This document shows positions 41,556 through 61,266 of a stretch of DNA of 64,000 bases, one piece after another. Where the stretch lies: sequence record PV159336; one strand, written 5' to 3'. Position numbers and translations under genes: made by a program. The DNA is from Escherichia phage W22. The notes below the pieces were generated by a model, which was not told the origin of the DNA, ran no database searches, and saw nothing but the letters and a program-made list of their open reading frames with translations. Each line of letters starts with the position of its first letter. The stretch's first letter is position 1.

Positions 41556-42021
41556 TTTAACTACAATCAAGGTGTCTGATCTACCTGTAACAACATCTGT
41601 TTCAGACACAGATTATTTTGTAACAGATCAATCGGGCATCACTAAGAAAACATCATTACGTGTTCTTCTTGCGGGTGCTGGTGTTACACGAAATCGTCTT
41701 TCTGCAAGGGGTACTGTTACAAACACCCTAGCTTTAGATATTAGTACGGCAGAGTATTTCTCTGCCACTTTATCTAGTCCAACTTGCAGTATTTCATTTA
41801 GTAATGTTCCAGTTACAACTAACATTGTTCAAAACTTTACTCTATCCCTACGTCAAGGAAGTGGAGCAAATAAAGTAACGTGGCCTCAATCTGTTAAATG
41901 GAGTTTTGGTCGCGCTCCTGTTTTGAGTTATAAACAGGGAGCTACAGATATTTTTGAATTTGTTAGTTATGATAATGGAGCTACCTGGATAGGTAGTTTA
42001 GTGATGGCAGGAGTGATTTAA
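41548..42021 (+). CDS. tail protein with fibre-type N-terminal anchor motif
   Basis: 157 aa; N-terminus IKVSDLPVTTSVSDTDYFVTDQSGITKKTS resembles that of ORF 47074. Confidence 0.4.
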   Translation: MADLTTIKVSDLPVTTSVSDTDYFVTDQSGITKKTSLRVLLAGAGVTRNRLSARGTVTNTLALDISTAEYFSATLSSPTCSISFSNVPVTTNIVQNFTLSLRQGSGANKVTWPQSVKWSFGRAPVLSYKQGATDIFEFVSYDNGATWIGSLVMAGVI

Positions 42022-47073: not shown

Positions 47074-47988
47074 ATGTCAACTACAATTACTAATTTACCC
47101 GAAACATCAAAAGTTAATGGTTCAGATTACCTGGTTTTAGATCAATCTGATAAAACTGTTAAAAGCACAGTTTCCAACTTTCTTACTGACACTGGGGTGG
47201 TTAAAGATTACACTCGTCCTAATATCCGTCAGTTGATCCGCGACCGTGAGGAAGCATTGATCGGAAACAAGGTTCGCTTTGTAACATGGAACACTCAAGG
47301 ATATAACAGTGTGTACAAGTATTATGGAAAAGACTTCGCTAACCAACAACGTGTAACAGACTTGACAGAGTGGTTCCTTCGCATAGGGGCTGATTTTGTG
47401 GGATCACAAGAAGTCTGGTCTGTGCCAGATCAACCGGATAGATTCTTCGCACAATATCCGTATATTTCTGCTTTCCAGTCTATCTCTCTTTGGGAATCAT
47501 CGCTAGGACGCCGCTACGGAAACCTGGCAGTAGCTACACGCGCTTTGAACAACAGTACGTTTAAGATTTATGACTCTCAGCCTATCCCTGGTGACACCGA
47601 TAAGGAACTCCGTTCATATATCCGAACGGAAATGACGGTAGCAGGAACGACCATCGCAATCTACGTCACACACTTGTCTCTTAATCAGACACGCATAAAT
47701 GAAGAGATTGCCGAGTTGGGGCTGGCAATGCAGAACGACACAGCGACGCACATCGTTGTCATGGGGGACTGGAACACTAACACTGATACTGACTTCGCGC
47801 CGTTCACCGATCATGGATTCACTATGGTGAACAGGTTCGGTGAATTTAACACCAACAACGTTGGCAATACCTGGTATCTCGACCGAATTTTCTACAAAGG
47901 TTTCTCGGCTGAAGATGATCGCGGGGTCTTTGATACTCCTGTGTCACTTGGCGACCACAAGGCTCTCTATGTAGATCTGGTAATTTAA
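47074..47988 (+). CDS. tail-anchored endonuclease/exonuclease/phosphatase (EEP) family hydrolase
   Basis: 304 aa; fibre-type N-terminus then EEP-like motifs WNTQGY, SQEVW, GDWNTN, SLGDHKALY; GC content visibly higher than flanks. Confidence 0.5.
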   Translation: MSTTITNLPETSKVNGSDYLVLDQSDKTVKSTVSNFLTDTGVVKDYTRPNIRQLIRDREEALIGNKVRFVTWNTQGYNSVYKYYGKDFANQQRVTDLTEWFLRIGADFVGSQEVWSVPDQPDRFFAQYPYISAFQSISLWESSLGRRYGNLAVATRALNNSTFKIYDSQPIPGDTDKELRSYIRTEMTVAGTTIAIYVTHLSLNQTRINEEIAELGLAMQNDTATHIVVMGDWNTNTDTDFAPFTDHGFTMVNRFGEFNTNNVGNTWYLDRIFYKGFSAEDDRGVFDTPVSLGDHKALYVDLVI

Positions 47989-48000
47989 GGGGAAAGGAAA

Positions 48001-49308
48001 ATGAATTTACATACAATTGACGCAAACATACTTGACATGCAGGGGCTGCCTTTGGATCTCCGCATCAACAAGATGCTGTCAGACATCAACCGCCTGTATC
48101 AACGAGGGCAGGTTATACTGCTTACTAAGTTTGCTGATTTAGGTCTTGCTGACACCGAAGCTACAATGGCAAATGTGTTCGCTCGTATGCCTAATAACAC
48201 CATCTTTATGACTGAAGTTTACCGTGGTGTTCACACCAATTTCGACATGCCGACACTAATCAACGGTGCGAGATTATCTGGACGGTTGATTGTCTATGGT
48301 TCGTCCGAGTCAAGTAACAAATTGACTGCATACTTTCAGCAAGAAACAGGTTTGTGGACACGCCACCTGAACAAAGGTGCTGCCACAAATTATACCGATA
48401 CGGGATGGCATAAGATTGAAGTTCATGGTTTGCAAGAGGATCTAACCACAAGCTCTGTGACTAATCTTGAAAACAAGCTGTCAAACCTAAAAACGCCAGG
48501 CATCTATTACATAGCTGGTAGCATAATGTCACAATTCACAGACGTGCCCACAACAGGTTCAGGAGCATCACTGTGTGAAGTGACCTATATTCACCATCTG
48601 GCTGACACAATACAGACTTTGCGTACCAACGGGGTTGCTCAGACCGGGTGGCGTAGACAAATTTCTAACAATGGAACTGTTGGGGAATGGAAACAGGAGT
48701 TTGTTAGTGGCTCTCCTATGAATAGTTCGTCTACTATAAGTTTCGCCGGGGGAACTGTTTCTGGGACATTAACTACAAGGACGCTCCAACCTGAAAAAAC
48801 AGCAACCCACAACATCGGTTATGCTTCTGCTGCATACAATCAAGCGTATTTTCAGAATGCGCCCACAGTTGTTTCTGATGTGAATTATAAACTATTCATA
48901 GACGATATTCCTGACGATGTTTTGGATGCGTGGAGCACGGTTAACTACTATCAGTGGAAAATGAAAACTGCTGTTGCGGAGAAAGGTGAGGAAAAAGCGC
49001 GCCTTCATGTAGGTGTCCTTGCACAAGAAATCAAAGAGAAGTTTGAAGCTGCTGGTTTGGATGCAACCAAGTATGGCATTCTTATCTATGATTGTTGGGA
49101 AGCTGTTGAGGCTGTTGAATATAAACCTGCTGTATACGATCCAGATACTAACGAATTAATCTCTGAAGAAGTTCAGGCTGTTGAAGGACGTGAAGCAGGT
49201 GAGATCTGGATGGTGCGAATGGAAGAGTGTCTTGCTTTAGAAGCGGCACTGATGCGCCGGACTACAAAACGACTGGAAGATCGCATGGCTGCTCTGGAAG
49301 GCAAGTAA
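48001..49308 (+). CDS. tail fibre protein with C-terminal chaperone-like domain
   Basis: 435 aa; C-terminal region rich in LE..R..ALE repeats; shares the GC shift of 47074. Confidence 0.4.
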   Translation: MNLHTIDANILDMQGLPLDLRINKMLSDINRLYQRGQVILLTKFADLGLADTEATMANVFARMPNNTIFMTEVYRGVHTNFDMPTLINGARLSGRLIVYGSSESSNKLTAYFQQETGLWTRHLNKGAATNYTDTGWHKIEVHGLQEDLTTSSVTNLENKLSNLKTPGIYYIAGSIMSQFTDVPTTGSGASLCEVTYIHHLADTIQTLRTNGVAQTGWRRQISNNGTVGEWKQEFVSGSPMNSSSTISFAGGTVSGTLTTRTLQPEKTATHNIGYASAAYNQAYFQNAPTVVSDVNYKLFIDDIPDDVLDAWSTVNYYQWKMKTAVAEKGEEKARLHVGVLAQEIKEKFEAAGLDATKYGILIYDCWEAVEAVEYKPAVYDPDTNELISEEVQAVEGREAGEIWMVRMEECLALEAALMRRTTKRLEDRMAALEGK

Positions 49309-49689: not shown

Positions 49690-49931
49690 GAAAATTTTTA
49701 ATAGGTATGTTCTGTACATATCCTGATAATAAAGTCAGTTCTACTAAAGTTTGGAATGCTATTGGTATGATTGTTATGTCCAGTATGTTTATTTATTTGG
49801 GAATTGATAAAGAAATTCCTGAATGGATGGGCTGGGCTTTTGTTTTTATGATCACACCATCTAGACTAATGAAGAATTTAATAGATTTACGTTGGGGCAG
49901 ATCACCTGCCCCTGATAAGGAGGATAACTAA
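49686..49931 (+). CDS. small membrane protein (two predicted TM helices), holin-like candidate
   Basis: 81 aa; hydrophobic segments AIGMIVMSSMFIYLGI and WMGWAFVFMI. Confidence 0.35.
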   Translation: MRKFLIGMFCTYPDNKVSSTKVWNAIGMIVMSSMFIYLGIDKEIPEWMGWAFVFMITPSRLMKNLIDLRWGRSPAPDKEDN

Positions 49932-51418
49932 TGGCAGATTATGGTTTAACAGATGCTGGTTTTGTCATTCCAACATTTGATGATATTCTAAATAATTATA
50001 TGACAGCATTGAAAAACACTTTCGGTGCAGATACAGCTACATCTGAAGATACTGTCTTTGGTCAACTGTTTCGTATTATTGCATATACAGATTACACCCT
50101 TTGGGAAGGTATGCAAGGTGTTTACAATACCCAAACCTTAGATGGTGCAGAAGGTATTTACCTTGATGAAATCTTCTCTAAAAGAGGTTTTTATCGTAAA
50201 GCTGCTTCTGCTGGTAGTGGTTATGCTTATGTTAAATCTAACAATAAGGCAGCTTGGACTTATGAACTAAGCACAGATGTTTATTTTAATGCCGATAACG
50301 ATTTGACATATTATGTCAGTGCACCAACAATGTTGAATGCTAAGATTGGAGCATATACCATTTCTAAAGCAAACGCAACAGCTTCTGGTGAAACTTCTAT
50401 TACTTTCTACATTCAAAGTGCTATTGATGGTGGTCTTAACAGTAAAACACTAAGTCCTAGCAATACAAACTTTATTGTAGATCTCACGAATTTCATTAAA
50501 GCTAACGTATCAACAACAGATCGTGCTTTAGTATGGAATGATGCTAGTAATGTTTACATGGGTTATAATCCAGAAGATAATGTTAACCCAATAGGTCTAG
50601 TAACACCAGTGAAATTTTATGCATCCATTGCAATTGGTACAAAATGGAGTGAAATTCCAGTTACGTGTTCAGACGTTGGTTATAATCCAGTAGGTACAGA
50701 AAGTATTACAGGTATTTCTTCAACGTTTACAGGCTTTTTAGATACAGGTAACTTCTATCCGTTCTCTCCAGGTACAGATGTTGAAACAGATGCAGAATTC
50801 CGTTCTCGTTTCAATGATAATATGGATGAAGCTAATGCTGCTACTCGTGCTGCTATTGTTAAAGCTCTATTACTGACAGATGGTGTGACAAAGGTTAAGA
50901 TTTATGATAACCCTACACTACACGATCAGGAACATGCTCCAGCTATGACATTCCAGACTATTGTGTATGGTGGTACAGCAGAAGAAGTTGCACAGGTTAT
51001 TTATAATACTAAGCCTATTAACACCTTAACTTATGGTACGACAGCAATTACTATCATAACAGAAGATGGTGGTCAAGAAGTAATTCGTTTTTCTCCTGGT
51101 GATAATGCGGAATACTCACTTAAACTGGTATATCAAACTGGCAATGGTAGTGTGTTAAGTACAACAGAAAGGGAAAATATTGTTTCTGCTCTTGCAAACT
51201 TACAGGCTTACTTTGAATTAGGCTCAACAGTAACTAACGATCAGATAAAAGGTGTAATTTATTCTGCACTTGCGTTCGGACGCTTGACTTCTCTCCGTGT
51301 TTATGTTAAACTTAATACTGAGGATGACAGTAAATATAATGAGGGAGATATTACTCCAGCGTACAATGTTGTACCATCCTTTGACCTTGATAATATTTCC
51401 TACGAGTACGGAGTCTAA
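49931..51418 (+). CDS. baseplate protein J-like
   Basis: 495 aa; size and position before gpI-like and fibre genes. Confidence 0.4.
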   Translation: MADYGLTDAGFVIPTFDDILNNYMTALKNTFGADTATSEDTVFGQLFRIIAYTDYTLWEGMQGVYNTQTLDGAEGIYLDEIFSKRGFYRKAASAGSGYAYVKSNNKAAWTYELSTDVYFNADNDLTYYVSAPTMLNAKIGAYTISKANATASGETSITFYIQSAIDGGLNSKTLSPSNTNFIVDLTNFIKANVSTTDRALVWNDASNVYMGYNPEDNVNPIGLVTPVKFYASIAIGTKWSEIPVTCSDVGYNPVGTESITGISSTFTGFLDTGNFYPFSPGTDVETDAEFRSRFNDNMDEANAATRAAIVKALLLTDGVTKVKIYDNPTLHDQEHAPAMTFQTIVYGGTAEEVAQVIYNTKPINTLTYGTTAITIITEDGGQEVIRFSPGDNAEYSLKLVYQTGNGSVLSTTERENIVSALANLQAYFELGSTVTNDQIKGVIYSALAFGRLTSLRVYVKLNTEDDSKYNEGDITPAYNVVPSFDLDNISYEYGV

Positions 51419-51420
51419 AA

Positions 51421-52050
51421 ATGGCAGTGAGTGTTGACCATGTGACAACGTGGGATAGTATCAATGAAGATGTTAAAGACCTACTGATTGAAGATTTTAA
51501 ATCTTCTCCGAACATTGTCAAACTACTCTATATCATTTCTAGCGAAAAACAAAAGATAGATCAGGCAATGATCTATCTTGCCAAACACCGCTTAATCTCT
51601 ACTGCAACTGGTAAGTATTTAGATCTTATTGGTGAAGAGATGGGGATGGAAAGAAATGGTGCTACGGATGAAGAGTATCGTACAATATTAAAAATCAGGG
51701 CTTATCGTGTTGCGTCTTCTGGTACGCGAGATGATATCATTGATATGTTCGCTCGTTTTACAGGAACAGAAAAAGAAACGATTAATACATACGTTGGATT
51801 AAATAAAACATTCGACGTATTCTTTTATAATTTGTGTCTACAATCCGATCAGGCAGTAGCACAGTTACTTAACGTTTTCCCGATCCTAAGTAGTTATCGC
51901 TTAGGTGCGAAAGCGGGTGCAGCCTTTGGTTTCACTTCCTACTATGCCACAAAGCCACCTCATGGTATAGGTGGTTTAGGTTCTCTTTACACAGAGGCTG
52001 AAGGAGATGATACAGGGCGAATGACTATGCTGATAGCTCAAATAGAATAA
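51421..52050 (+). CDS. tail protein I-like (baseplate)
   Basis: 209 aa; position after the J-like gene. Confidence 0.35.
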   Translation: MAVSVDHVTTWDSINEDVKDLLIEDFKSSPNIVKLLYIISSEKQKIDQAMIYLAKHRLISTATGKYLDLIGEEMGMERNGATDEEYRTILKIRAYRVASSGTRDDIIDMFARFTGTEKETINTYVGLNKTFDVFFYNLCLQSDQAVAQLLNVFPILSSYRLGAKAGAAFGFTSYYATKPPHGIGGLGSLYTEAEGDDTGRMTMLIAQIE

Positions 52051-52063
52051 GGAGTTACCCTTA

Positions 52064-53044
52064 ATGGCAAAGCCACAATACTACCCTGACTGGGCGACAC
52101 AAACAGTAACCCTCCCAGGAACGGGAAACACAAACAAGATTAGACCAAAAGAAACCATCCGTAATGTTGGTATGGACTTTGGTCAGATTATGACTTGTGA
52201 AGAAATGAACTGGATCTTAAACAATATTGGGTCTTGGATTCGCTATATGCAAGATGAATTCTTCCCAACATTGCCTACTACATATCTTCCTATAGTCGGT
52301 ACTAAAATTACAATGGCAGGTGATGCTACAGGTGAAGTTACATGGAATGGTAATGCTGCTGTAACATTATCTATTCAAGTCGTAGATAACAGCCATAATC
52401 ACTTATCAGCTAACATTACAGACGCAACATCAAACCAAGTTGTAGGGAATGTCCTTGTTAAACGTGATAATGGTGGTGCTATCTATGCAGGTGATATTTA
52501 CACTTGTGGTACAGGTGCTACAGATCCTGCAACATTATTTTTTAGAAACTATAATGGACAAACAGTAGGCAATATGTCTTCTGAACCAGGTGCAGGTGGT
52601 CAACTCTATATTTATAGAATAAATCCATCTACTGGAGGAACATCTTGTGGAGTTCGTTTGTATGATGCAGGTTATGTTTTAATAGACAACCCTCGCTCTA
52701 ATTCTGGTCAAGATACTGGCAATGGTAATGCTCTTGTAAGATTAGATTATCTTAACTCAAGACTAAACTCATTGCAAAGCACACTGCAAAATAACATTAA
52801 CAACGTTAATAGTAACTTGCAAGGCCAAATTAATAACATTAACAATAGAGTTTCTTCTGTTGTGTCTTCTATCCGTCTAGGTACACGTATTAAAGCTGGT
52901 GTATCTGAATCTCCTTTCTATGCTGGTCACGTGATCACAGGCTGGGGTTTTGGTGATAAGAAAGAACTTCGTGGTGCTTGGTATTGGTCTGCTCCGCTAC
53001 AATATTACATTAATGGTAGGTGGATAACAGTAACCAACGTTTAG
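52064..53044 (+). CDS. tail fibre protein
   Basis: 326 aa; Gly/Asn/Thr-rich with repeat NNINNVNSNLQGQINNINN. Confidence 0.45.
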   Translation: MAKPQYYPDWATQTVTLPGTGNTNKIRPKETIRNVGMDFGQIMTCEEMNWILNNIGSWIRYMQDEFFPTLPTTYLPIVGTKITMAGDATGEVTWNGNAAVTLSIQVVDNSHNHLSANITDATSNQVVGNVLVKRDNGGAIYAGDIYTCGTGATDPATLFFRNYNGQTVGNMSSEPGAGGQLYIYRINPSTGGTSCGVRLYDAGYVLIDNPRSNSGQDTGNGNALVRLDYLNSRLNSLQSTLQNNINNVNSNLQGQINNINNRVSSVVSSIRLGTRIKAGVSESPFYAGHVITGWGFGDKKELRGAWYWSAPLQYYINGRWITVTNV

Positions 53045-53056
53045 TAAGGAGAACAC

Positions 53057-53608
53057 ATGAAAAAAGATGTTATTTACACTGGCTTTGAACTATATCAACC
53101 AGAATTGACAGAAGAAAATGTCATGTATCTTTCAATAGGTGCTGGTTTTCTTAAAGATAAAGATGGTAATGATTGGTACGAAATTCAGAAATATTTATCC
53201 AAAAATTACCCTGATGCCTATTTCTTAACTCTAGATCACAACAATGTAGTTGTTGCAGTTACGAAAGATGTTTCTACATATTTTCCTGCTGGTCTTACTG
53301 TTCTTGTAACGTATAATGTTCCAGATAAAATAGAAGAAGAAAGCAATCTAGGATCGTGGAAATATGATAATGGTAAGTTTATTTCTTATAATGGGTTTGC
53401 AATAGAAGATGCCAACCTTAAAATGGAAAAAGAATTAACTTGGGCCACAAATCAAATATCTGCAATGCAAGATTTAGAGGAATTACAAGGTTTATCTGAA
53501 GAACAAAAAGATTGGTTAGGAAAAGTTAAACTATATCGTGCAACACTGATTCAAATTAACGTTGAAGATGCACCTAATATAACTTGGCCTACAAGACCTA
53601 AGAAATAG
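53057..53608 (+). CDS. tail fibre assembly protein (chaperone)
   Basis: 183 aa directly downstream of the fibre gene. Confidence 0.4.
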   Translation: MKKDVIYTGFELYQPELTEENVMYLSIGAGFLKDKDGNDWYEIQKYLSKNYPDAYFLTLDHNNVVVAVTKDVSTYFPAGLTVLVTYNVPDKIEEESNLGSWKYDNGKFISYNGFAIEDANLKMEKELTWATNQISAMQDLEELQGLSEEQKDWLGKVKLYRATLIQINVEDAPNITWPTRPKK

Positions 53609-53617
53609 GGGTAATGT

Positions 53618-53959
53618 ATGGAGCTAACAGAAGTATGGGATATCGCTAAAGAGGCGATTATCCCTCTTATTGGTGTAATCTGGGTGGTCTTCAAACAGAA
53701 GATAGATGATATGGCAAGTGATTTGGATAAAATGGAAGACAAATACCGTGAACTAGAAAAGAAGTTGGTGTTTGTTGAATCCACTTATGCTACCAAAGCA
53801 GAACTTGCTCAAATGCTTAACCAGATCAACTCTACATTAATGGCAAATAATACTGCCTTAGAACAGAAGATTGAAAAAATAATGGATTTAAAAAATGCTC
53901 CTGTTCAATTAATGCTAGAGGAGATTACGAAGCGCACACAAAGTAAGGACAAAAATTAA
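53618..53959 (+). CDS. small protein with N-terminal TM helix and coiled coil
   Basis: 113 aa; AIIPLIGVIWVVF then a helical Lys/Glu-rich region. Confidence 0.35.
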   Translation: MELTEVWDIAKEAIIPLIGVIWVVFKQKIDDMASDLDKMEDKYRELEKKLVFVESTYATKAELAQMLNQINSTLMANNTALEQKIEKIMDLKNAPVQLMLEEITKRTQSKDKN

Positions 53960-56373
53960 TGGCGAATTTTCCAACATATCCTGCTACGACACTAGAACAA
54001 GGTGTTGATCTGGTTATATTCTCGTCTAACCAGATGCATGATGTTATTAACGGGGATGCTACAGCAACTGTAGAAACCGAAACAGGTTTAATACCTACAC
54101 TGCGTAAAGCACTTGTTGATAACTTCTTCTTTAAGAGTCCTGTTGCTTGGTCAGCAGGATCAACTGAAACTGTATTTAACCAGTTACGTTATTTTGAAAA
54201 CGGTATCTTGAGTGGGTACTACTATGCCCCATCTGCCACTACTGCGAACCCTGTACCTATGCAGGGTACACCTGTAGGAGACAGTAACTGGACTCTGTAC
54301 GCTCTTAAAACTGAACAGTTAGCTTCAGATGTGTATCCTTGGTATTTTAAAGGTGCTACAGGATATGAAACAGAAATCAGTCCTCCTTATATCTTTGATA
54401 ATGCTATTGTCACCATTAACGGTGTAATTCAGATTCAAGGTGAAGCATTTACTATCAAAGATAGTAAAATTATTCTGGCAGAACCATTAGGTTTAGATCC
54501 GTCTACTGGGCTACCTAACAAATTGTTTGCTTTTATTGGTAAAACAACAGCCTCTACTTCTTACGTAGAGAAAAACCTTTTGTCATCTACCACTGGTGCA
54601 GCAATGGTTGGTCTTCCATCTGGAGGCAACCTGTTACAAGCTCAATACTTTGTAACGCCTGAACAGTTTGGTGCAATTGGTGATGGAGTTACCGATGATA
54701 CTCAAGCAATTTTAAAAACCATTACTTTCGCTAACACGAATAACATTCAAGTACGTGCAGATAAGAATTATAGATTCACAAGCTCAATTGCTATGTCTGG
54801 TATTCGTTGGTATGGTGGTACATTCACTGGTAACGGTGGAACAATGATTTCTACTGTGTCCTGTTGGATTGAAAACGTTCGCTTTGAAAAATGTTATGTT
54901 AAGATGTTAGGTGGGGATTGCCGATTCTATCGTAATATCTTCTCCAACGCAACATCTACAGCAGCATTCTTAATGCAAGCGATGACAAGTGAAGGTACGT
55001 TGGACTTCAGTTACAACGAAATGTATGGTTGTAAATATGCGATCCTGCAACAAGGTACTGGAGAAGTAATGACCTATGGGCGTTACTCTAACAACTACAT
55101 TCACGATATCAAAGGTGATGCTATTGAACTTAACGTAGTTCAAAAACACTACACTGAAGGTTTGATCATCGAGAATAACCACATTGCTAACGTAGATGCT
55201 TCTGGACAAGGGGCAAACTGGGGTATTGGTATTGGTGTAGCAGGTAGTGGCCCATATGGTGTTGATGCTCCTGATTCACAATATGTACGTAACTTCAGTA
55301 TCGTTGGGAATAGGGTTTACAATTGCCGTCAATGTTTACACGTTGAAATGGGTAAAAACTTTACGATACGTGATAATGAAGTTTATCCTAACACAGCAGT
55401 TTCAACAGGTACAGGTTTAACTACTTGTGGTGTTGCATTATACGGATGCCAAGACTTTGAAGTTGATGGTTTAACTGGTTATCTGCTTAATGATCCGTCT
55501 GTTTCAACACGCATGGTCTTTATTGACTGGGGTGTTAACAGTGGAAGATATGCGGGGCCACCAATTAACTTTACAATTAAGAATTTGGATATTCCAGAAT
55601 CTTCAATTGAAATTGCAACGGCTGGATCAGATGCCTGGGAAAACTCTACAATTGTTAGTAACATCAATTGTAATGTTTTTAAATGGCGTGGACTACCATC
55701 TAGCTCTACCTTTAATAATATTCGTTGCCGTAGTATTGACTTTATTGGTCAACACGGAAGCGGAGAAGGAAGTGGTGGCGGTTTCTATACTCGCAGCCAA
55801 TTCACTTATATGAAGTGGGTAGGATGTACAGCACTTAGCGGAGATGAAACAACAGTTTCTTTTGCTAAAATCTACACGGATCGTTGCGATCAGGTTGGAA
55901 ATAACTTTGGTGTTCCAACTGCTGTTGATGGTACAGGTCATCGTGGGCCAGTCTTAACCACTATTTCTGAACAATATTTTACAGATTATGATGAATTCCC
56001 AGGTGGGCGTGACTTCCCTACTGGAACAGTTATTCATTGTGCAAGCGGTAAAAAACACGTTGTTACAGTAGGTGGTGCTTTCTTTAGTAATAATGAGAAA
56101 ATAAAAGCAACTGTTACAGGTCAAACCTATCTACAGTCTAATGCTTTAAACTGGGCTAGTAATGGCTACGCTAAAGCGGCAGGTACTAAGATTGTTATTC
56201 CAGGTGCAGGAGCAAATGGTGGCGATCTTGTGACAACTATAGCACGTGCTACGTATGTGACAAATAGTTTGTACACAATAGATATTGCAGATCCAATTGT
56301 AACACCTACAGCAGAGAATACACAAATTAAAGCTCTGAACCCTGTTACTTTTGTTACTGTCAATAATGCTTAA
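53959..56373 (+). CDS. tailspike protein with right-handed beta-helix (pectate-lyase-like) domain
   Basis: 804 aa; repeated NN.I.N / G.G.G motifs (NNYIHDIKGDAIELN, NNHIANVDASGQGANWGIGIG) typical of parallel beta-helix depolymerases. Confidence 0.5.
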   Translation: MANFPTYPATTLEQGVDLVIFSSNQMHDVINGDATATVETETGLIPTLRKALVDNFFFKSPVAWSAGSTETVFNQLRYFENGILSGYYYAPSATTANPVPMQGTPVGDSNWTLYALKTEQLASDVYPWYFKGATGYETEISPPYIFDNAIVTINGVIQIQGEAFTIKDSKIILAEPLGLDPSTGLPNKLFAFIGKTTASTSYVEKNLLSSTTGAAMVGLPSGGNLLQAQYFVTPEQFGAIGDGVTDDTQAILKTITFANTNNIQVRADKNYRFTSSIAMSGIRWYGGTFTGNGGTMISTVSCWIENVRFEKCYVKMLGGDCRFYRNIFSNATSTAAFLMQAMTSEGTLDFSYNEMYGCKYAILQQGTGEVMTYGRYSNNYIHDIKGDAIELNVVQKHYTEGLIIENNHIANVDASGQGANWGIGIGVAGSGPYGVDAPDSQYVRNFSIVGNRVYNCRQCLHVEMGKNFTIRDNEVYPNTAVSTGTGLTTCGVALYGCQDFEVDGLTGYLLNDPSVSTRMVFIDWGVNSGRYAGPPINFTIKNLDIPESSIEIATAGSDAWENSTIVSNINCNVFKWRGLPSSSTFNNIRCRSIDFIGQHGSGEGSGGGFYTRSQFTYMKWVGCTALSGDETTVSFAKIYTDRCDQVGNNFGVPTAVDGTGHRGPVLTTISEQYFTDYDEFPGGRDFPTGTVIHCASGKKHVVTVGGAFFSNNEKIKATVTGQTYLQSNALNWASNGYAKAAGTKIVIPGAGANGGDLVTTIARATYVTNSLYTIDIADPIVTPTAENTQIKALNPVTFVTVNNA

Positions 56374-56400
56374 TTAAAAGGGGCGAAAGCCCCTTTATAA
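56374..56400 (+). terminator. hairpin terminator
   Basis: AAAAGGGGCGAAAGCCCCTTT. Confidence 0.5.
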
Positions 56401-56413
56401 AAGGAGTAGTAAA

Positions 56414-58375
56414 GTGATTTTAACACGTCCAAATAGTGCCATTGCAGACATGGTAGAGTCTCGCTATAGAAAGCGTAGAAGTTTTGCAAGTGGTTTTACC
56501 TTAAGAGATGCTCGTGAAGCATTGCTCTTTGAAGCTGACGGTAACTACTATCAGTGGAAAGGCTCTCTACCTAAAGTTGTACCTGCTAACTCTACTCCTA
56601 CATCTACTGGAGGGATTTCAGATACAGCTTGGAAAAATGTGGGTAATGCAGATGACATTGCTCAAATAGAATCAGAATTAGATGCTATTGAAGCTGAAAT
56701 TGAAGATCTTAGAGAATCCATCCCAGAAGCTGGTAAATCAGCTTACCAGATTGCCGTAGACAATGGTTTCCAAGGTACTGAGACACAGTGGTTGGCTTCT
56801 TTAAAAGGTGATCCAGGTGCTCCATTAAAGCTATTAGGGACACTATCTAATACCAACCAATTACCTACAAGTGGAAACAATGCAGGGGATGCATGGATTG
56901 TAGGCGAGAATATGTATGCTTGGGATGGTACTGCTTGGAGAAAAGTAAACTCACAGGGGCCAGAAGGTAAATCTGCTTATGAAGTATGGCTTGCAGCAGG
57001 AAATGAAGGTACAGAACTAGATTATCTTGCTTCAATTAAAGGTGATAAAGGGGAGCCTGGCCCAGAGGGGCCACAAGGTGTGCCAGGTAATAATGCTAAT
57101 GGTTTTGATTACCAAGGCGCAGCTAATTCCGTTTCAGATCTTCCTTCTGCATCTCATGGAAACACATCTCAAGCATGGAGTGTTGGTACATATCTATACG
57201 TGTCAAACGGTGTAGAATGGATCAATATGGGTGCTATAGTGGGGCCAAAAGGAGATAAAGGCGACAAAGGTGATAAGGGTAACACTGGTGATTCAGCTTA
57301 TCAAGTCTGGTTAAATGCTGGTAACGTTGGTACTATTGATGAATATATTGCCTCTCTGAAAGGAGAAAAAGGTGATAAGGGAGACAAGGGTGATCAAGGT
57401 GCACAGGGTATACAAGGCTTGACGGGGCCAACTGGTGCAGGGTTGACCATTATTGACATTCTTACTAGCACTTCTGAACTACCACAAACTGGAGAAGAGG
57501 GTGATGGTTATCTAATCAATAATGAACTTTGGGTCTGGTTGCAAGGAGCCACAGAGTGGACAAATGTTGGTCGTTTAGCTGGTACTCCAATCACTGCAAA
57601 AGGACACGTTGCGTCTGCAAGTGCACTTCCTCCTACAGCTAATTACGGTGATGCTTATCTGACGGAAGATACAGGTCATCTTTACATTTACACCTATGAT
57701 GAACAAACTCAAACTGCTGAATATGTAGATATGGGTAGTTTGAAAGGTGATAAGGGTGAAAAAGGTGACGCTGGTACTAACGGTACAGACGGTGCAACTT
57801 GGATTGTTAAAACAACAGATCCAATCTCTAGTGATGGTAAACAAGGTGATTATGCCTTTAATATCTCCACTGGCGAGGTGTTCTTAAAAACATCTGCAAC
57901 TGTCTGGACTTCTCAAGGTACACTACCTAGTATCACAGATGCACCTAGTGATGGTAAGACTTATGCTCGTAAAGATGGGGCATGGGAAGAACTCACTAAT
58001 TCTGTAGATGGTCAAGATATAGTTCCAACAAAAGTAACAACTAATTTTATAGAGGTTACAGCATATACCAACAATTCTGTTACAGGCGACTGGACACCTC
58101 CAGGAACACATAACATGAATGTGTTGAATCTTACTGGTAACTCTACTATAAAAGCATGGCCTGGTGTCGAAGATAGCACAAAACCTAAACCATTCTCTGC
58201 AATAGTTTATCTTATCCAAGATGCCACTGGAGGTCATACTGTTACTTTAGATCCATCTTACAAAGTAATTGGTTCTAGTGATATTAATACAGATCCTAAC
58301 GGAGTAACAATACTACAACTAACATATTGTGGTGTTGGCGATTACGTGGATGCTATTGTTGCTAAACGCACATAA
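56414..58375 (+). CDS. tail fibre protein with collagen-like Gly-X-Y repeats
   Basis: 653 aa; GDKGEPGPEGPQGVPG, GPKGDKGDKGDKGNTGDS, GEKGDKGDKGDQGAQGIQGLTGPTGAG. Confidence 0.55.
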   Translation: MILTRPNSAIADMVESRYRKRRSFASGFTLRDAREALLFEADGNYYQWKGSLPKVVPANSTPTSTGGISDTAWKNVGNADDIAQIESELDAIEAEIEDLRESIPEAGKSAYQIAVDNGFQGTETQWLASLKGDPGAPLKLLGTLSNTNQLPTSGNNAGDAWIVGENMYAWDGTAWRKVNSQGPEGKSAYEVWLAAGNEGTELDYLASIKGDKGEPGPEGPQGVPGNNANGFDYQGAANSVSDLPSASHGNTSQAWSVGTYLYVSNGVEWINMGAIVGPKGDKGDKGDKGNTGDSAYQVWLNAGNVGTIDEYIASLKGEKGDKGDKGDQGAQGIQGLTGPTGAGLTIIDILTSTSELPQTGEEGDGYLINNELWVWLQGATEWTNVGRLAGTPITAKGHVASASALPPTANYGDAYLTEDTGHLYIYTYDEQTQTAEYVDMGSLKGDKGEKGDAGTNGTDGATWIVKTTDPISSDGKQGDYAFNISTGEVFLKTSATVWTSQGTLPSITDAPSDGKTYARKDGAWEELTNSVDGQDIVPTKVTTNFIEVTAYTNNSVTGDWTPPGTHNMNVLNLTGNSTIKAWPGVEDSTKPKPFSAIVYLIQDATGGHTVTLDPSYKVIGSSDINTDPNGVTILQLTYCGVGDYVDAIVAKRT

Positions 58376-58400
58376 TCAAAGCCCCTTCGGGGGCTTATTA
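58376..58400 (+). terminator. hairpin terminator
   Basis: AAAGCCCC-TTCG-GGGGCTT. Confidence 0.5.
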
Positions 58401-58414
58401 TTTAAGGAGATTAA

Positions 58415-61234
58415 ATGTATCCTATTCCTTTATTTATGTCAACAACATCAGCTTCAGTAGTAACAGCTACATCTATAACCACTTCCTCTATTGGTATTGC
58501 AATAGTTGGTAGTAAAAAGCAACTGACATACACAGTTTCACCGGAAGATGGTGCGTTATTTGATATAGCTTTTTCATCTTCAGATAATACCAAAATGGTT
58601 ATAGATAATAACGGTATGATGGAGTTTGTTGCTGAAGGCGGTTTTGATGCAATAATGACAGCTAAAAATAATTTAGGTGCTGTCTTAACTGATCAGTCTG
58701 GTGGCTATGCTTCAGAATTAAGTGTGTACACTGAAAGTCTGTCTGCTATGGATGCAGGAACTACTCAACAATTGGTTGCTACAATCAGTCCAGAAGGTGC
58801 TAAAGACCTTCCAGACATGGTAATTACGTACACCACAACAGATCCAGAAGTAGCTACTGTAAGCCCTACAGGATTAATAACTGCTCTTAAAGATGGCAGT
58901 TGCCGTATAGGTTGCACTGCAACTTATCAAGGAACAGTGGTGGCCTCTGATAGTTCTTATTTAGGTGTTAATGCTGTTCCTGTTATTTCTAATGTAACAG
59001 CCGTGGCAAACAGCTATGGAGACATTCGTGTTGCTTGGGATGTAGCTGATCCGCTAGATGGTGATACTTATACTGTAGAAGTATTAGATTTAAGTAATAA
59101 CAGTGTCCAGTGGACTACAACAACCACGAATACTTACGCCTACTTTGATATCTCTGACTCTATTCCTCTTTATGGGTTTGCTCCAACATACCTTAAAATT
59201 AGCGTTAAGAGCACCAAAGCAGCAGCCGTTATCTTTAATAACTCAATAGCTACAGATGATTCATTCATTAAAGAAGTTATTGTCTTTGCTGGACAAGATA
59301 ACGTAAATGCACACTTTACAGAACTATCTGGTGCAAATAAAGCAGCAATGAGTAGCACAACAGCCCGTAATGCATATGCTACGCAACGTGGTTTAGCAAA
59401 TGCTGAAGTTCTCCCGTTAAATACAGCTTCTGGATCATCAGCAGCAGATAAATATGCAGATGATAAAGCCGGAACAGGTACACCAGACAACTACTGGTAT
59501 GATCTGGATAACACAGCAGATGGGCCATGCTTAACTAACTTTATCACTAAAGTCACACCTTATGCAAGTAAGGTTAAAGCAATTATTTGGGGACAAGGTG
59601 AAAATGATGCTGTATCAGCATCTTCGACTGTTGCAGGAAGATACAGTAACACTACACGTTACCATGATGCTACGATAGCTATCTTTGATAAGATGCGTAC
59701 AATAGTTCCTGCTTCTCAAGCAAAAATTGTTTGGCAGATCCTAGGACGTTCTTATCTGTATGGTGTAGAAGTTAATGGTGTGGATTGGCAGAAATACAGA
59801 AATGTACAAAGAACCATCTCTACAGCACGTGACGATGTTATCATTGGTTCTTGGGTAGATGGTGCTGAACGTTACAGTGGTTATGTTTATGAAGAAGGTA
59901 TTGATGGTCGTATCCATTATATTTCTTCTGTATACCAGACAGCAGCTACAAAACTTGCTAAATCAGCAGCAGACGGTACAGACCTAACATCAACGTCACC
60001 TGTTTGGGTTGATATGGCTGTTCCAACTGGAGCAACAGCTACTTCCCAACCTAATCAAGATACAATCTTAGCATGGGATGCTCAAGGTTATAGTAAACAC
60101 TACTTCCGTAATATTAACGTCTTAACAGCATCTGTATTAACTGAACAAACGCTTAATACGAACAGTTATACGTTTACCTATGCAGATCAAGTAGAACAAT
60201 ATGGTTTTGCAGCAGGTACTACGATATTTGATGTTGCATATTATGACGAAGCAAATGATGTGTTATCTCCTTTAGTACGTTTTAATGTTAGCGTTACAGC
60301 AGGAAAAGTAGAAGATAAACCTGTCGTGATGGACTATGATTTGACGCAAGAAACTCTCCCATCAGATGTTAAGGTTAATGGTGGAAACTCTTTTGCTCGT
60401 GCTTCTGGAGATACACTTGTAGCCACTAACACCTTGGTTGCTCCGTTGGAGTATGTTGGCACTACCCCTGTAGGTAGACGTGTAACAGCTAACACAGCTA
60501 CACAAATTTTTGTCAACAACGCCTTAACAAGCGCAAGCCCGTGGGTAAAGACCAACTTAACTGTTGCAGCTTCATCTGATAAATCTCCGGCTGGAACTAC
60601 TGCTAATGTATTCAAATTAACTCCGACTACAACCTCTGGTAGTCATATCTTAACTGCAACATATACTAACGCGTACAACATATCTGCCGGACGTAACTGG
60701 TCTGCCTCTGTTTTCTTGAAAGCGAACGGGATTACTAAGGCCAAACTAAGATTAAAAGCAGGGACTGAAGTTAATGAAGGTACTTTTGATTTAGCAGCAG
60801 GTACATTCACAGGAAGTGAAGCTAATATTATATCTATGGGCAACGGTTGGTATCGTGCTATTCTGCATAAAACAGGGATAGCCAAACAGTCCTCCATAAG
60901 TTTTGAAATAATTGCCTTGGATGCTACTGGTGCGGAGATTTTCGCTGGGGATGGTACTAGTAACCTTGCAGTTTGGTTGCCACAGCTTGAAGGTGCTTCT
61001 ACAGGAGAAACATCAAAAGCTGGATCGCCTTATGTCTGCACATATCCTGGAAATTTAGGAGGAGTATCCTTCACTATACCAAGGAACGGACATACTGGTG
61101 TGGATGTTTACTATTCCAACGGAGACGTTGTTCGTGACGTATTCTCTGGTACGGCATCTACTTGGACAATAAACTACTCCAGCTTGTACGATTGGGGATC
61201 AGTCTTTATTACAGGTTTGAAATATTACGACTAA
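58415..61234 (+). CDS. large tail fibre / side-tail protein with Ig-like region and putative SGNH-type esterase domain
   Basis: 939 aa; Ser/Thr-rich beta-rich N-terminal region; central VIVFAGQDN...IIWGQGENDA resembles SGNH/carbohydrate-esterase catalytic blocks. Confidence 0.45.
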   Translation: MYPIPLFMSTTSASVVTATSITTSSIGIAIVGSKKQLTYTVSPEDGALFDIAFSSSDNTKMVIDNNGMMEFVAEGGFDAIMTAKNNLGAVLTDQSGGYASELSVYTESLSAMDAGTTQQLVATISPEGAKDLPDMVITYTTTDPEVATVSPTGLITALKDGSCRIGCTATYQGTVVASDSSYLGVNAVPVISNVTAVANSYGDIRVAWDVADPLDGDTYTVEVLDLSNNSVQWTTTTTNTYAYFDISDSIPLYGFAPTYLKISVKSTKAAAVIFNNSIATDDSFIKEVIVFAGQDNVNAHFTELSGANKAAMSSTTARNAYATQRGLANAEVLPLNTASGSSAADKYADDKAGTGTPDNYWYDLDNTADGPCLTNFITKVTPYASKVKAIIWGQGENDAVSASSTVAGRYSNTTRYHDATIAIFDKMRTIVPASQAKIVWQILGRSYLYGVEVNGVDWQKYRNVQRTISTARDDVIIGSWVDGAERYSGYVYEEGIDGRIHYISSVYQTAATKLAKSAADGTDLTSTSPVWVDMAVPTGATATSQPNQDTILAWDAQGYSKHYFRNINVLTASVLTEQTLNTNSYTFTYADQVEQYGFAAGTTIFDVAYYDEANDVLSPLVRFNVSVTAGKVEDKPVVMDYDLTQETLPSDVKVNGGNSFARASGDTLVATNTLVAPLEYVGTTPVGRRVTANTATQIFVNNALTSASPWVKTNLTVAASSDKSPAGTTANVFKLTPTTTSGSHILTATYTNAYNISAGRNWSASVFLKANGITKAKLRLKAGTEVNEGTFDLAAGTFTGSEANIISMGNGWYRAILHKTGIAKQSSISFEIIALDATGAEIFAGDGTSNLAVWLPQLEGASTGETSKAGSPYVCTYPGNLGGVSFTIPRNGHTGVDVYYSNGDVVRDVFSGTASTWTINYSSLYDWGSVFITGLKYYD

Positions 61235-61235
61235 T

Positions 61236-61266
61236 AAAAAAGGAGCCATTAGGCTCCTTTTCTTTT
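61236..61266. terminator. bidirectional hairpin terminator at the convergence of plus and minus gene blocks
   Basis: AAAAAGGAGCC-ATTA-GGCTCCTTTTCTTTT with A/T tracts on both sides. Confidence 0.6.

What the first reader, a model, noticed from the sequence alone, without database searches (positions are those of the whole stretch)
53959..61234. Three consecutive distinct receptor-binding or depolymerase proteins
Consecutive genes encode a right-handed beta-helix tailspike-like protein, a fibre with collagen-like Gly-X-Y triplet runs, and a 939-aa fibre whose central region resembles an SGNH-type carbohydrate esterase. With the EEP protein and the 52064 fibre, this phage appears to carry at least five different host-surface-interacting proteins, which would give it broad or multi-receptor adsorption.
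Basis: partly seen in the sequence, partly recalled or inferred. Interest (0 to 1): 0.5.

Follow-up and report, generated by a model that had tools for sequence, protein, structure and literature searches.

The report
Known phi92-type multi-fibre host-recognition genes
These three neighbouring genes are the already described colanic-acid-cutting tailspike, collagen-like fibre and a modular sugar-binding tail protein of phi92-like E. coli phages, so the finding is correct but ordinary, except that the "esterase" domain has lost its catalytic serine.

Summary
The three ORFs are at 53959-56373, 56414-58375 and 58415-61234 (+). The window is a Justusliebigvirus (phi92-like myovirus), and the region is 98.9% identical to phage SD2.

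- **Gene 1** is phi92 gp150, the colanidase tailspike. It shows 8 differences in 625 residues against crystal structure 6E0V.
- **Gene 2** is phi92 gp151. It has an N-terminal tailspike-docking domain, four Gly-X-Y runs (27 triplets against about 3.5 by chance), a foldon-like motif and a tip domain.
- **Gene 3** (939 aa) reads Ig-like domains, then FN3–SGNH fold–FN3, then a lectin-like C-terminal domain.
  - The central module is modelled with high confidence (pLDDT 93.7). It matches the phage N4 sheath protein gp65 and SGNH esterases.
  - At the nucleophile position it has Asp295, where 47 of 66 homologous domains have Ser. I therefore read it as a binding module, not a conventional esterase.
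  - The C-terminal domain is related to the capsule-binding RcGTA head-spike fibre.

Multivalent "Swiss army knife" adsorption by these phages has been published since 2012, so novelty is low. Where the three proteins sit on the virion, and what gene 3 does, are not established.

The parts
53959..56373 (+). Gene 1: colanidase tailspike, orthologue of phi92 gp150 (804 aa)
   Evidence: PDB 6E0V, E=0, aa 180-804, 8 differences in 625. phrog_6117 'colanic acid degradation', 2e-270. Syntenic with PHI92_gene_150.
53959..54498 (+). Gene 1 N-terminal ~180 aa: particle-attachment region, not in the crystal structure
   Evidence: aa 12-126 match the baseplate-bound N-terminus of the phiTE long tail fibre (9CUY_g, E 9e-18). 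In phiTE, residues 14-171 were modelled in the baseplate (PMC11972413).
56068..56334 (+). Gene 1 C-terminal TSP_Ig-like domain (aa 704-792)
   Evidence: Pfam PF20745, 53.7 bits, cut-off 27.9.
56414..58375 (+). Gene 2: collagen-like tail fibre, orthologue of phi92 gp151 (653 aa, GTG start)
   Evidence: phrog_15437, full length, E=0. Same length and position as PHI92_gene_151.
56444..56644 (+). Gene 2 Tail_spike_N docking domain (aa 11-77)
   Evidence: Pfam PF18668, 75.2 bits. PDB matches to the N-terminal parts of CBA120-type tailspikes and Sf11 gp13.
57041..57094 (+). Gly-X-Y run 1 (aa 210-227, 6 triplets)
57242..57295 (+). Gly-X-Y run 2 (aa 277-294, 6 triplets)
57362..57442 (+). Gly-X-Y run 3 (aa 317-343, 9 triplets); site of the Pfam Collagen match
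57746..57799 (+). Gly-X-Y run 4 (aa 445-462, 6 triplets)
57929..57985 (+). Foldon-like trimerisation motif (aa 506-524, ITDAPSDGKTYARKDGAW)
   Evidence: Local alignment to the T4 fibritin foldon scores 67, against 25.6 +/- 3.8 (maximum 45) in shuffles. Pfam Fibritin_C, 19.3 bits, below its cut-off of 21. PDB matches to fibritin and foldon fusion proteins.
58037..58372 (+). Gene 2 C-terminal tip domain (aa ~542-653)
   Evidence: Matches the C-terminus (aa 686-790) of the phiTE long tail fibre, 9CUY_g, E 6e-8. About 50% identical to the tail-fibre C-termini of phages annotated as Escherichia and 'Campylobacter' phages of about 137-140 kb, e.g. phage nomo.
58415..61234 (+). Gene 3: 939-aa modular tail protein (Ig-like x2, FN3, SGNH fold, FN3, lectin-like C-terminal domain)
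58487..58984 (+). Gene 3 Big_2 Ig-like region (aa ~25-190)
   Evidence: Pfam Big_2, 51.9 bits, two stretches. phrog_215 and phrog_28902.
58997..60334 (+). Gene 3 central module (aa 195-640): FN3, SGNH fold, FN3. Homologous to a module of the phage N4 sheath protein gp65
   Evidence: AF2 pLDDT 93.7. Foldseek to 9LC0/9YF5, TM 0.79, E 1e-32. Family profile against N4 gp65, E 4e-148.
59297..59299 (+). Codon GAT = Asp295, at the position of the SGNH/SASA serine nucleophile (FAGQDN; family consensus GQSN)
60335..61231 (+). Gene 3 C-terminal domain (aa 641-939), lectin-like and present in only some alleles
   Evidence: NCBIfam GTA_spike_fiber, 70.1 bits, cut-off 36. PDB sequence matches to Sf11 gp17 C-terminal appendage (E 1e-19) and the RcGTA head spike fibre Rcc01080 (E 4e-14). 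Absent from the 628-aa allele of VEcB.
61238..61261 (+). GC-rich hairpin plus T-run at the convergence with the minus-strand genes; probable terminator closing the module
   Evidence: Similar hairpins follow gene 1 (~56380-56393) and gene 2 (58379-58396).

Best explanation
The three genes are the last part of the tail-fibre module of a phi92-like myovirus (genus Justusliebigvirus). They encode three different surface-glycan-directed proteins.

Gene 1 is the colanidase tailspike. By homology it is a trimeric beta-helix enzyme that cuts colanic acid, the common enterobacterial slime polysaccharide. Its first ~180 residues probably fix it to the baseplate periphery.

Gene 2 is a non-enzymatic trimeric fibre with these parts:
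- an N-terminal docking domain of the kind that tailspikes use to attach to other tail proteins;
- a short coiled coil;
- four short collagen-like triple-helix segments that alternate with small beta modules;
- a foldon-like clamp;
- a C-terminal tip that binds a still unknown receptor.

Gene 3 is probably a monomeric string of domains that acts as an accessory adhesin. Its N4-gp65-like SGNH domain has lost the serine nucleophile (Asp295). I therefore propose that it holds a surface glycan instead of deacetylating it. Its C-terminal domain, related to the capsule-binding head-spike fibre of RcGTA, would bind polysaccharide.

Together with the upstream fibre genes, these proteins let the virion engage several glycans before the short fibres (gp147 homologue) commit it to infection.

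Shown here: identities, domain architecture, the SGNH fold and the missing serine. Inferred: oligomeric states, position on the virion, binding as opposed to catalysis for gene 3, and all receptor assignments except colanic acid, which rests on published work on phi92 gp150.
For: - Synteny and identity: 98.9% DNA identity over the whole region to phage SD2, and 52 phage records cover at least 80% of it. Gene order is the same as phi92 gp141-gp153.
- Gene 2: Tail_spike_N, Collagen and Fibritin_C matches, Gly-X-Y statistics, foldon-like motif, tip similar to the phiTE long-fibre tip.
- Gene 3: confident model, fold matches and a profile match to N4 gp65.
- Active site: family consensus is GQSN / W.QGE.D / ..H, against GQDN here.
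- Gene 3 C-terminal domain: homologous to the RcGTA head spike fibre, which binds capsule experimentally (PMC10218006).
- Published model: multivalent adsorption in this genus (PMC8594841; PMC11984140).
Against: - No experiment on this phage.
- The recent phi92 cryo-EM work could not fit gp150 or gp151 into the unassigned fibre II density, so their place on the virion is unknown (PMC13450770).
- The phi92 reference genome carries a disrupted copy of gene 3, and other relatives lack its C-terminal domain. Gene 3 is therefore dispensable at least for some hosts.
- Asp295 is conserved in two clades only about 48% identical to each other. This could mean altered catalysis and not simple loss of activity.
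- The model of the C-terminal domain is poor (pLDDT 54.5).
Confidence: 0.8

Rival explanations
1. Gene 3 is an active carbohydrate esterase (deacetylase) fibre. It would work like the SGNH esterase tailspike gp63.1 of phage G7C, which deacetylates O-antigen during adsorption.
For: - SGNH fold predicted with high confidence.
- Blocks II and III (GSS, GQGEND) and His501 are retained.
- Public records already name the gene 'tail carbohydrate esterase' (ALITA, KMB37).
- Asp at the nucleophile position is conserved in a second clade, so the site is under selection.
- Unconventional triads exist in carbohydrate deacetylases (PDB 9H4U title).
Against: - The nucleophile Ser is Asp295, whereas 47 of 66 homologous domains keep Ser.
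- The Asp of the DxxH block is not in register (D497 is at H-4).
- His is Gln in 2 of the 5 closest Asp-bearing relatives.
- The protein scores below the Pfam SASA cut-off.
- N4 gp65 itself carries a degenerate second copy (GINQ), which shows that non-catalytic copies are common in this family.
Confidence: 0.2
2. Gene 3 is not a host-receptor protein. It would be an accessory decoration that binds environmental glycans such as mucus or biofilm matrix through Ig-like and lectin-like domains, or a dispensable remnant.
For: - N-terminal Big_2 Ig-like domains are shared with the Ig-like ends of siphophage major tail proteins.
- The gene is disrupted in the phi92 reference, lacks its C-terminal domain in VEcB/ECGD1 and is split in the ALITA record.
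- No trimerisation or baseplate-docking motif was found.
Against: - It sits at the end of the tail-fibre module, directly after two fibre genes.
- It is intact in 26 records with at least 80% coverage.
- Its C-terminal domain shows allelic replacement typical of receptor-binding tips (86% identity or absent).
- Its central module is homologous to part of the N4 receptor-binding sheath.
Confidence: 0.15
3. Not all three proteins are displayed together. The locus would be a store of alternative or partly redundant cassettes, of which only some are assembled on a given virion.
For: - phi92 cryo-EM resolves only three fibre types. Neither gp150 nor gp151 models fit fibre II (PMC13450770).
- Each gene is followed by its own hairpin and T-run and has its own ribosome-binding site, so expression could differ between genes.
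Against: - The literature describes the fibres of phi92-like phages as co-expressed (PMC8594841; PMC11984140).
- All three genes are conserved at 95-99% identity in dozens of isolates.
- Flexible distal parts are routinely invisible in cryo-EM.
Confidence: 0.1

Closest known systems
Phage phi92 multivalent adsorption apparatus (gp141-gp153; Schwarzer et al. 2012; genus Justusliebigvirus)
   Same: Same gene order and near-identical proteins for gp150 and gp151. The same concept of several co-displayed fibres and spikes (PMC8594841, PMC13450770).
   Different: The gp143 endosialidase slot holds a different two-gene cassette here. Gene 3 is intact and carries an extra C-terminal domain, whereas the phi92 reference has a 225-bp deletion and frame changes that split it into 'gp152' and 'gp153'.
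phi92 gp150 colanidase tailspike (PDB 6E0V/6E0W)
   Same: 8 differences in 625 residues across the crystallised part.
   Different: None of note. The N-terminal 179 residues are not in the crystal structure.
Phage N4 non-contractile sheath gp65 with gp64 (PDB 9LC0, 9YF4/5)
   Same: Gene 3 aa 195-640 share the FN3-SGNH-FN3 module (profile E 4e-148, TM 0.79). The upstream gp142 homologue matches N4 gp64 and another gp65 segment. Both phage groups depend on the NGR glycan pathway on E. coli K-12 (PMC8669472).
   Different: Gene 3 lacks the NCTSP_N and TIM-barrel parts and the plug-binding C-terminal domains. It belongs to a contractile-tailed phage and cannot be a sheath. It shares about 20% identity.
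SGNH esterase tailspike gp63.1 of phage G7C, and the SASA/CE-family acetylesterases
   Same: SGNH fold on a phage tail protein. The family consensus blocks GQSN, QGE.D and H are of the SASA type.
   Different: Serine nucleophile replaced by Asp295. Below the Pfam SASA cut-off. No sequence match to G7C gp63.1 was seen. The comparison with G7C rests on my knowledge of Prokhorov et al. 2017, cited in PMC11640937.
RcGTA head spike fibre Rcc01080, and the C-terminal appendage of the Sf11 distal tail protein gp17
   Same: Gene 3 aa 641-939 match both by sequence (E 4e-14 and 1e-19) and pass the NCBIfam GTA_spike_fiber cut-off. The RcGTA protein binds capsule (PMC10218006).
   Different: Here the domain is fused to the end of a long tail protein, not to a head spike or a distal tail protein. 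In neither of the two PDB entries was this domain modelled (PMC12724387, PMC10218006).
Collagen-like phage tail fibres with a T4 fibritin-type foldon
   Same: Short Gly-X-Y runs interrupted by globular modules, and a foldon-like motif.
   Different: The runs are short (6-9 triplets). Triple-helix formation was not tested.

Membership tests
phi92-type tail-fibre module (Justusliebigvirus) | Synteny with phi92 gp141-gp153 and high nucleotide identity to genus members | tested here: met
   98.9% identity over 7276 bp to SD2, with 52 records covering at least 80%. Gene-by-gene correspondence with NC_023693.
Colanidase tailspike (phi92 gp150) | Sequence identity to the crystallised enzyme | tested here: met
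   6E0V, E=0, 8 differences in 625 residues.
Colanidase tailspike (phi92 gp150) | Right-handed beta-helix fold | not tested
The fold is inferred from near-identity to 6E0V, a partial WcaM match and a weak PF12708 match (E 0.017).
Colanidase tailspike (phi92 gp150) | Hydrolysis of colanic acid | not testable with these tools
   Reported for phi92 gp150 (PMC13450770).
Collagen-like triple-helix repeat (Pfam PF01391) | Uninterrupted Gly-X-Y runs scoring above the Pfam cut-off and above chance | tested here: met
   33.1 bits against a cut-off of 27.2. 27 triplets in runs of 6-9 against 3.5 expected.
Collagen-like triple-helix repeat (Pfam PF01391) | Formation of a trimeric triple helix | not testable with these tools
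   Indirect support only: foldon-like motif and homology of the docking domain to trimeric tailspikes.
SGNH / SASA carbohydrate esterase | SGNH (flavodoxin-like alpha/beta/alpha) fold | tested here: met
   AF2 pLDDT 93.7. Foldseek matches to CE2, CE20, PatB, GDSL esterases and PAF-AH, probability 1.0, TM 0.55-0.66.
SGNH / SASA carbohydrate esterase | Block I serine nucleophile (GQSN/GDS) | tested here: not met
   FAGQD295N. 47 of 66 homologous domains have Ser and 6 have Asp. Codon GAT confirmed.
SGNH / SASA carbohydrate esterase | Block III (QGE.D/N) and block V histidine | tested here: met
   W392-GQGENDA and H501 are present. The Asp of DxxH is out of register.
SGNH / SASA carbohydrate esterase | Score above the Pfam SASA gathering cut-off | tested here: not met
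   14.2-17.1 bits against 24.8. 16 of 26 relatives do match.
N4 gp65 non-contractile tail sheath (Pfam NCTSP families) | NCTSP_N and TIM-barrel_NCTSP domains | tested here: not met
   Absent from gene 3. They are present in the upstream gp142 homologue, 44906-47065. Gene 3 shares only the FN3-SGNH-FN3 module.
GTA head-spike-fibre domain (NCBIfam NF048003) | Score above the curated cut-off | tested here: met
   70.1 bits against 36, aa 694-863. Rcc01080 E 4e-14.

The most novel reading that the evidence does not exclude
The Asp295-bearing SGNH module of gene 3 would be a re-tooled glycan-recognition (or unusual catalytic) domain, not a dead relic. With the gp142 homologue it would reconstitute, on a contractile-tailed phage, the receptor-recognition modules of the N4 sheath heterodimer gp64/gp65. 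It would be the determinant of the dependence of phi92-like phages on the N4 glycan receptor (NGR).
Probability: 0.15. Interest if true: 0.5.

Novelty: already known. Interest (0 to 1): 0.22.

Why it matters
The locus explains, by homology, why phages of this genus plate on many encapsulated and non-encapsulated enterobacteria. That property makes them candidates for therapy and a source of glycan-degrading enzymes. All of this is already in the literature.

What this check adds is small.
- The "carbohydrate esterase" label that automated annotation gives to gene 3 is probably wrong for function, because the catalytic serine is missing.
- Gene 3 is a mosaic whose central module comes from the same stock as the N4 receptor-binding sheath.
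- The phi92 reference carries a broken copy of gene 3.

These points matter for anyone who engineers host range from these genes or assigns densities in phi92-type baseplate maps.

Tried and rejected
- **Word-indexed homologue search, central module:** it gave only 6 proteins. The exhaustive representative search (73 proteins) was needed.
- **Word-indexed homologue search, C-terminal domain:** it gave 4 proteins. The resulting 5-row alignment produced a poor model (pLDDT 54.5). Its Foldseek matches (Pa193/E217 baseplate chains, CBM61, CBM22, lectins) are only a hint of a beta-sandwich, carbohydrate-binding-like fold and are not used as evidence.
- **Corrected assumption about phi92:** I first took phi92 gp153 to correspond to the C-terminal domain of gene 3. 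Translating and aligning the phi92 DNA showed instead that gp152 and gp153 are fragments of a disrupted 628-aa-type allele.
- **Direct Pfam evidence for a beta-helix in gene 1:** only a sub-threshold PF12708 match was found.
- **Schwarzer et al. 2012 (PMC3457257):** the paper is not held, so its virion mass-spectrometry data could not be checked.
- **Virion proteomics of relatives:** the search found nothing usable.
- **Promoter-like sites:** not enriched over shuffles (18 against 22.3).
- **Chance or low complexity as the source of the Gly-X-Y runs:** rejected on the shuffle test.
Full report
**What is there.** The region holds three plus-strand ORFs at exactly the coordinates given: 53959-56373 (804 aa), 56414-58375 (653 aa, GTG start) and 58415-61234 (939 aa).
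- Each ORF is preceded by a Shine-Dalgarno sequence and followed by a GC-rich hairpin with a T-run.
- The last hairpin lies where transcription converges with minus-strand genes.
- The whole 7.3-kb stretch is 98.9% identical to Escherichia phage SD2. It is at least 95% identical in 55 phage records, almost all of them Justusliebigvirus, the phi92-like myoviruses of the Stephanstirmvirinae.

Comparison with the phi92 reference genome gives a gene-by-gene correspondence.

| Window coordinates | phi92 counterpart |
|---|---|
| 42021-44897 | gp141 |
| 44906-47065 | gp142 |
| 47074-49308 | a different cassette in the slot of the gp143 endosialidase |
| 49931-52050 | wedge proteins gp145/146 |
| 52064-53044 | short fibre gp147 |
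| 53057-53608 | fibre chaperone gp148 |
| 53618-53959 | lipoprotein gp149 |
| 53959-56373 | gp150 |
| 56414-58375 | gp151 |
| 58415-61234 | the region annotated as gp152/gp153 |

**Gene 1.**
- Residues 180-804 match the crystallised phi92 gp150 (PDB 6E0V/6E0W) with E=0. I count 8 differences in 625 residues.
- PHROGs files it under colanic acid degradation (2e-270).
- Residues 358-552 resemble WcaM of the colanic acid operon.
- phi92 gp150 is reported to hydrolyse the beta-1,4 glucose-fucose bond of colanic acid (PMC13450770). Others use it as the reference colanidase tailspike (PMC11126041; PMC11640937).
- I did not predict the fold. The beta-helix claim rests on this near-identity, on the depositors' note in the phi92 record and on a weak pectate-lyase-like Pfam match.
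- The first ~180 residues are outside the crystal structure. Residues 12-126 match the N-terminus of the phiTE long tail fibre, which was modelled bound to that phage's baseplate (PMC11972413). This is probably the attachment region.

**Gene 2.** This is phi92 gp151. Its parts, in order:
- a Tail_spike_N domain (aa 11-77, 75 bits), the N-terminal docking domain of CBA120-type and Sf11 tailspikes;
- an acidic heptad-like stretch (aa ~80-105);
- three copies of a 24-residue motif (SAY...SLKG), each leading into a Gly-X-Y run, plus a fourth run. The runs are 6, 6, 9 and 6 triplets, 27 in all. Shuffled sequences give a mean of 3.5 and never a run longer than 6. Pfam Collagen is above its cut-off;
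- small aromatic-rich modules of the type G[DQ].[YW]...W...G between the runs;
- a foldon-like motif at aa 506-524, ITDAPSDGKTYARKDGAW. It aligns to the T4 fibritin foldon with a score about 11 standard deviations above shuffles. It also retrieves fibritin and dozens of foldon-fusion constructs from the PDB. This supports a trimer;
- a C-terminal ~110-residue tip that matches the C-terminal end of the same phiTE long fibre (E 6e-8) and the tips of tail fibres of other large coliphages.

No enzymatic domain was found. I read gene 2 as a non-enzymatic trimeric fibre with a distal receptor-binding tip.

**Gene 3 architecture.** This is the least characterised of the three.
- Residues ~25-190 are Big_2 Ig-like domains.
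- An exhaustive search with residues 195-640 found 73 representative relatives, many with the unit repeated inside very long proteins.
- A 26-row alignment gave a confident AlphaFold2 model (pLDDT 93.7, pTM 0.90) with three domains: beta-sandwich, alpha/beta/alpha, beta-sandwich.
- The best Foldseek matches are the non-contractile sheath protein gp65 of phage N4 (9LC0, 9YF5; TM 0.79, E about 1e-32). After these come SGNH/GDSL esterases and acyltransferases, with probability 1.0 and TM 0.55-0.66 on the target.
- The family profile matches N4 gp65 at E 4e-148 across several gp65 segments. It matches SASA-type esterases only weakly (2APJ, 1ZMB, 9H4U).
- Sixteen of 26 family members match Pfam SASA (best 1e-12), but the window protein does not reach the cut-off.

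**Gene 3 active site.** The active site is not intact.
- In an alignment of 66 homologous domain copies the consensus blocks are GQSN, GGS, W.QGE.D and (D)..H.
- The window protein reads FAGQD295N. It has Asp where 47 of 66 copies have Ser.
- It keeps GQGEND and His501.
- The nearest other clade (Av-05-like, about 48% identical) reads GGDN, and two of its five members also replace the His with Gln.
- N4 gp65 itself contains one Ser-bearing copy and one degenerate copy.
- I therefore consider a conventional serine esterase unlikely. I propose a glycan-binding role. The conservation of Asp leaves room for altered chemistry.

**Gene 3 C-terminal domain.**
- Residues 641-939 pass the NCBIfam cut-off for the GTA head-spike-fibre domain.
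- They match the RcGTA head spike fibre Rcc01080 and the unexplained C-terminal appendage of the Sf11 distal tail protein (PMC12724387).
- The RcGTA protein binds capsular polysaccharide in experiments (PMC10218006).
- My model of this domain is of low confidence. Its fold matches are only suggestive.

**Gene 3 alleles.** The gene is modular across relatives.

| Form | Where found | Evidence |
|---|---|---|
| 939-aa form | 26 records with at least 80% coverage | |
| 628-aa form without the C-terminal domain | VEcB, ECGD1 | |
| Ig-like domains plus C-terminal domain, no central module | Phapecoctavirus | |
| Broken 628-aa-type allele (225-bp deletion and two frame changes) | phi92 reference, annotated 'gp152' and 'gp153' | |

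None of its modules comes from a trimeric shaft, and no docking or trimerisation motif was found. "Fibre" is therefore unproven, and a monomeric string of domains is more likely.

**Context and interpretation.**
- That phi92-like phages carry several co-displayed spikes and fibres, and owe their broad host range to them, has been the standard description since 2012. It is repeated in later work (PMC8594841; PMC11984140; PMC12210895; PMC13450770).
- This window adds further candidates upstream. The gp142 homologue matches N4 gp64 and gp65. An EEP-fold protein and a fibre with an S74 chaperone replace the endosialidase. The count of "at least five" is thus conservative.
- Which protein forms which fibre is still open. 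The 2026 phi92 cryo-EM study could not fit gp150 or gp151 into fibre II.
- Both N4 and phi92-like phages need the NGR glycan pathway on K-12 (PMC8669472), and both carry modules of the gp64/gp65 type. This suggests, but does not show, that gene 3 or the gp142 homologue takes part in NGR recognition.

**Verdict.** The system is already known. Interest is low. The one loose end worth an experiment is the Asp-for-Ser SGNH module shared with the N4 sheath.

Noticed in passing
window 47074-49308: A two-gene cassette occupies the slot of the phi92 gp143 endosialidase: a 304-aa protein with an endonuclease/exonuclease/phosphatase fold and a 435-aa fibre with a Peptidase_S74 chaperone. No phage record has a near DNA match (at most 21% coverage, flanks only). 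The best protein relatives (57% identity) are an adjacent gene pair in siphophages BEK2/BEK3. Only the first ~50 aa are shared with other Justusliebigvirus.
   Followed up: partly
window 44906-47065: The phi92 gp142 homologue (Calx-beta, NCTSP_N, TIM-barrel_NCTSP) matches N4 gp64 (E 1e-26) and N4 gp65 (E 2e-11). With the gp65-like module of gene 3, the parts of the N4 sheath heterodimer are spread over two proteins of this myovirus.
   Followed up: partly
L003 16321-17983 (phi92 NC_023693 91320-92982): phi92 'gp152' and 'gp153' are fragments of one disrupted gene. It is a 628-aa-type allele of gene 3 with a 225-bp deletion and two frame changes. These are either real mutations or sequencing errors in the reference.
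   Followed up: yes
L001 17458-20277 (phage ALITA): In the ALITA record the gene 3 orthologue is annotated as two CDS: 'tail carbohydrate esterase' of 720 aa and 'tail protein' of 172 aa. The record therefore has a break in the gene. It also shows that automated annotation already assigns an esterase function that the missing serine makes doubtful.
   Followed up: no
window 53959-54340 and 58037-58372: The phiTE long tail fibre (PDB 9CUY chain g, 793 aa) resembles gene 1 at its N-terminus (aa 15-130) and gene 2 at its C-terminus (aa 686-790). The anchor and the tip of one fibre in phiTE are on two separate proteins here.
   Followed up: partly
window ~56380-56393, 58379-58396, 61238-61261: Each of the three genes is followed by a GC-rich hairpin and a T-run, and then (for the first two) an AAGGAG ribosome-binding site. 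These are possible attenuators or RNA-stabilising elements that delimit the gene cassettes. Terminator-like sites are only mildly above shuffles overall (7 against 4.7).
   Followed up: no
L006 356-4531 (Achromobacter phage phiAxp-2): The FN3-SGNH-FN3 unit of gene 3 also occurs in very long 'tail sheath and receptor binding' proteins. These come from a siphovirus-type Achromobacter phage (Casjensviridae) and from many metagenomic proteins, and the unit is often present in two or more tandem copies with and without the serine.
   Followed up: partly
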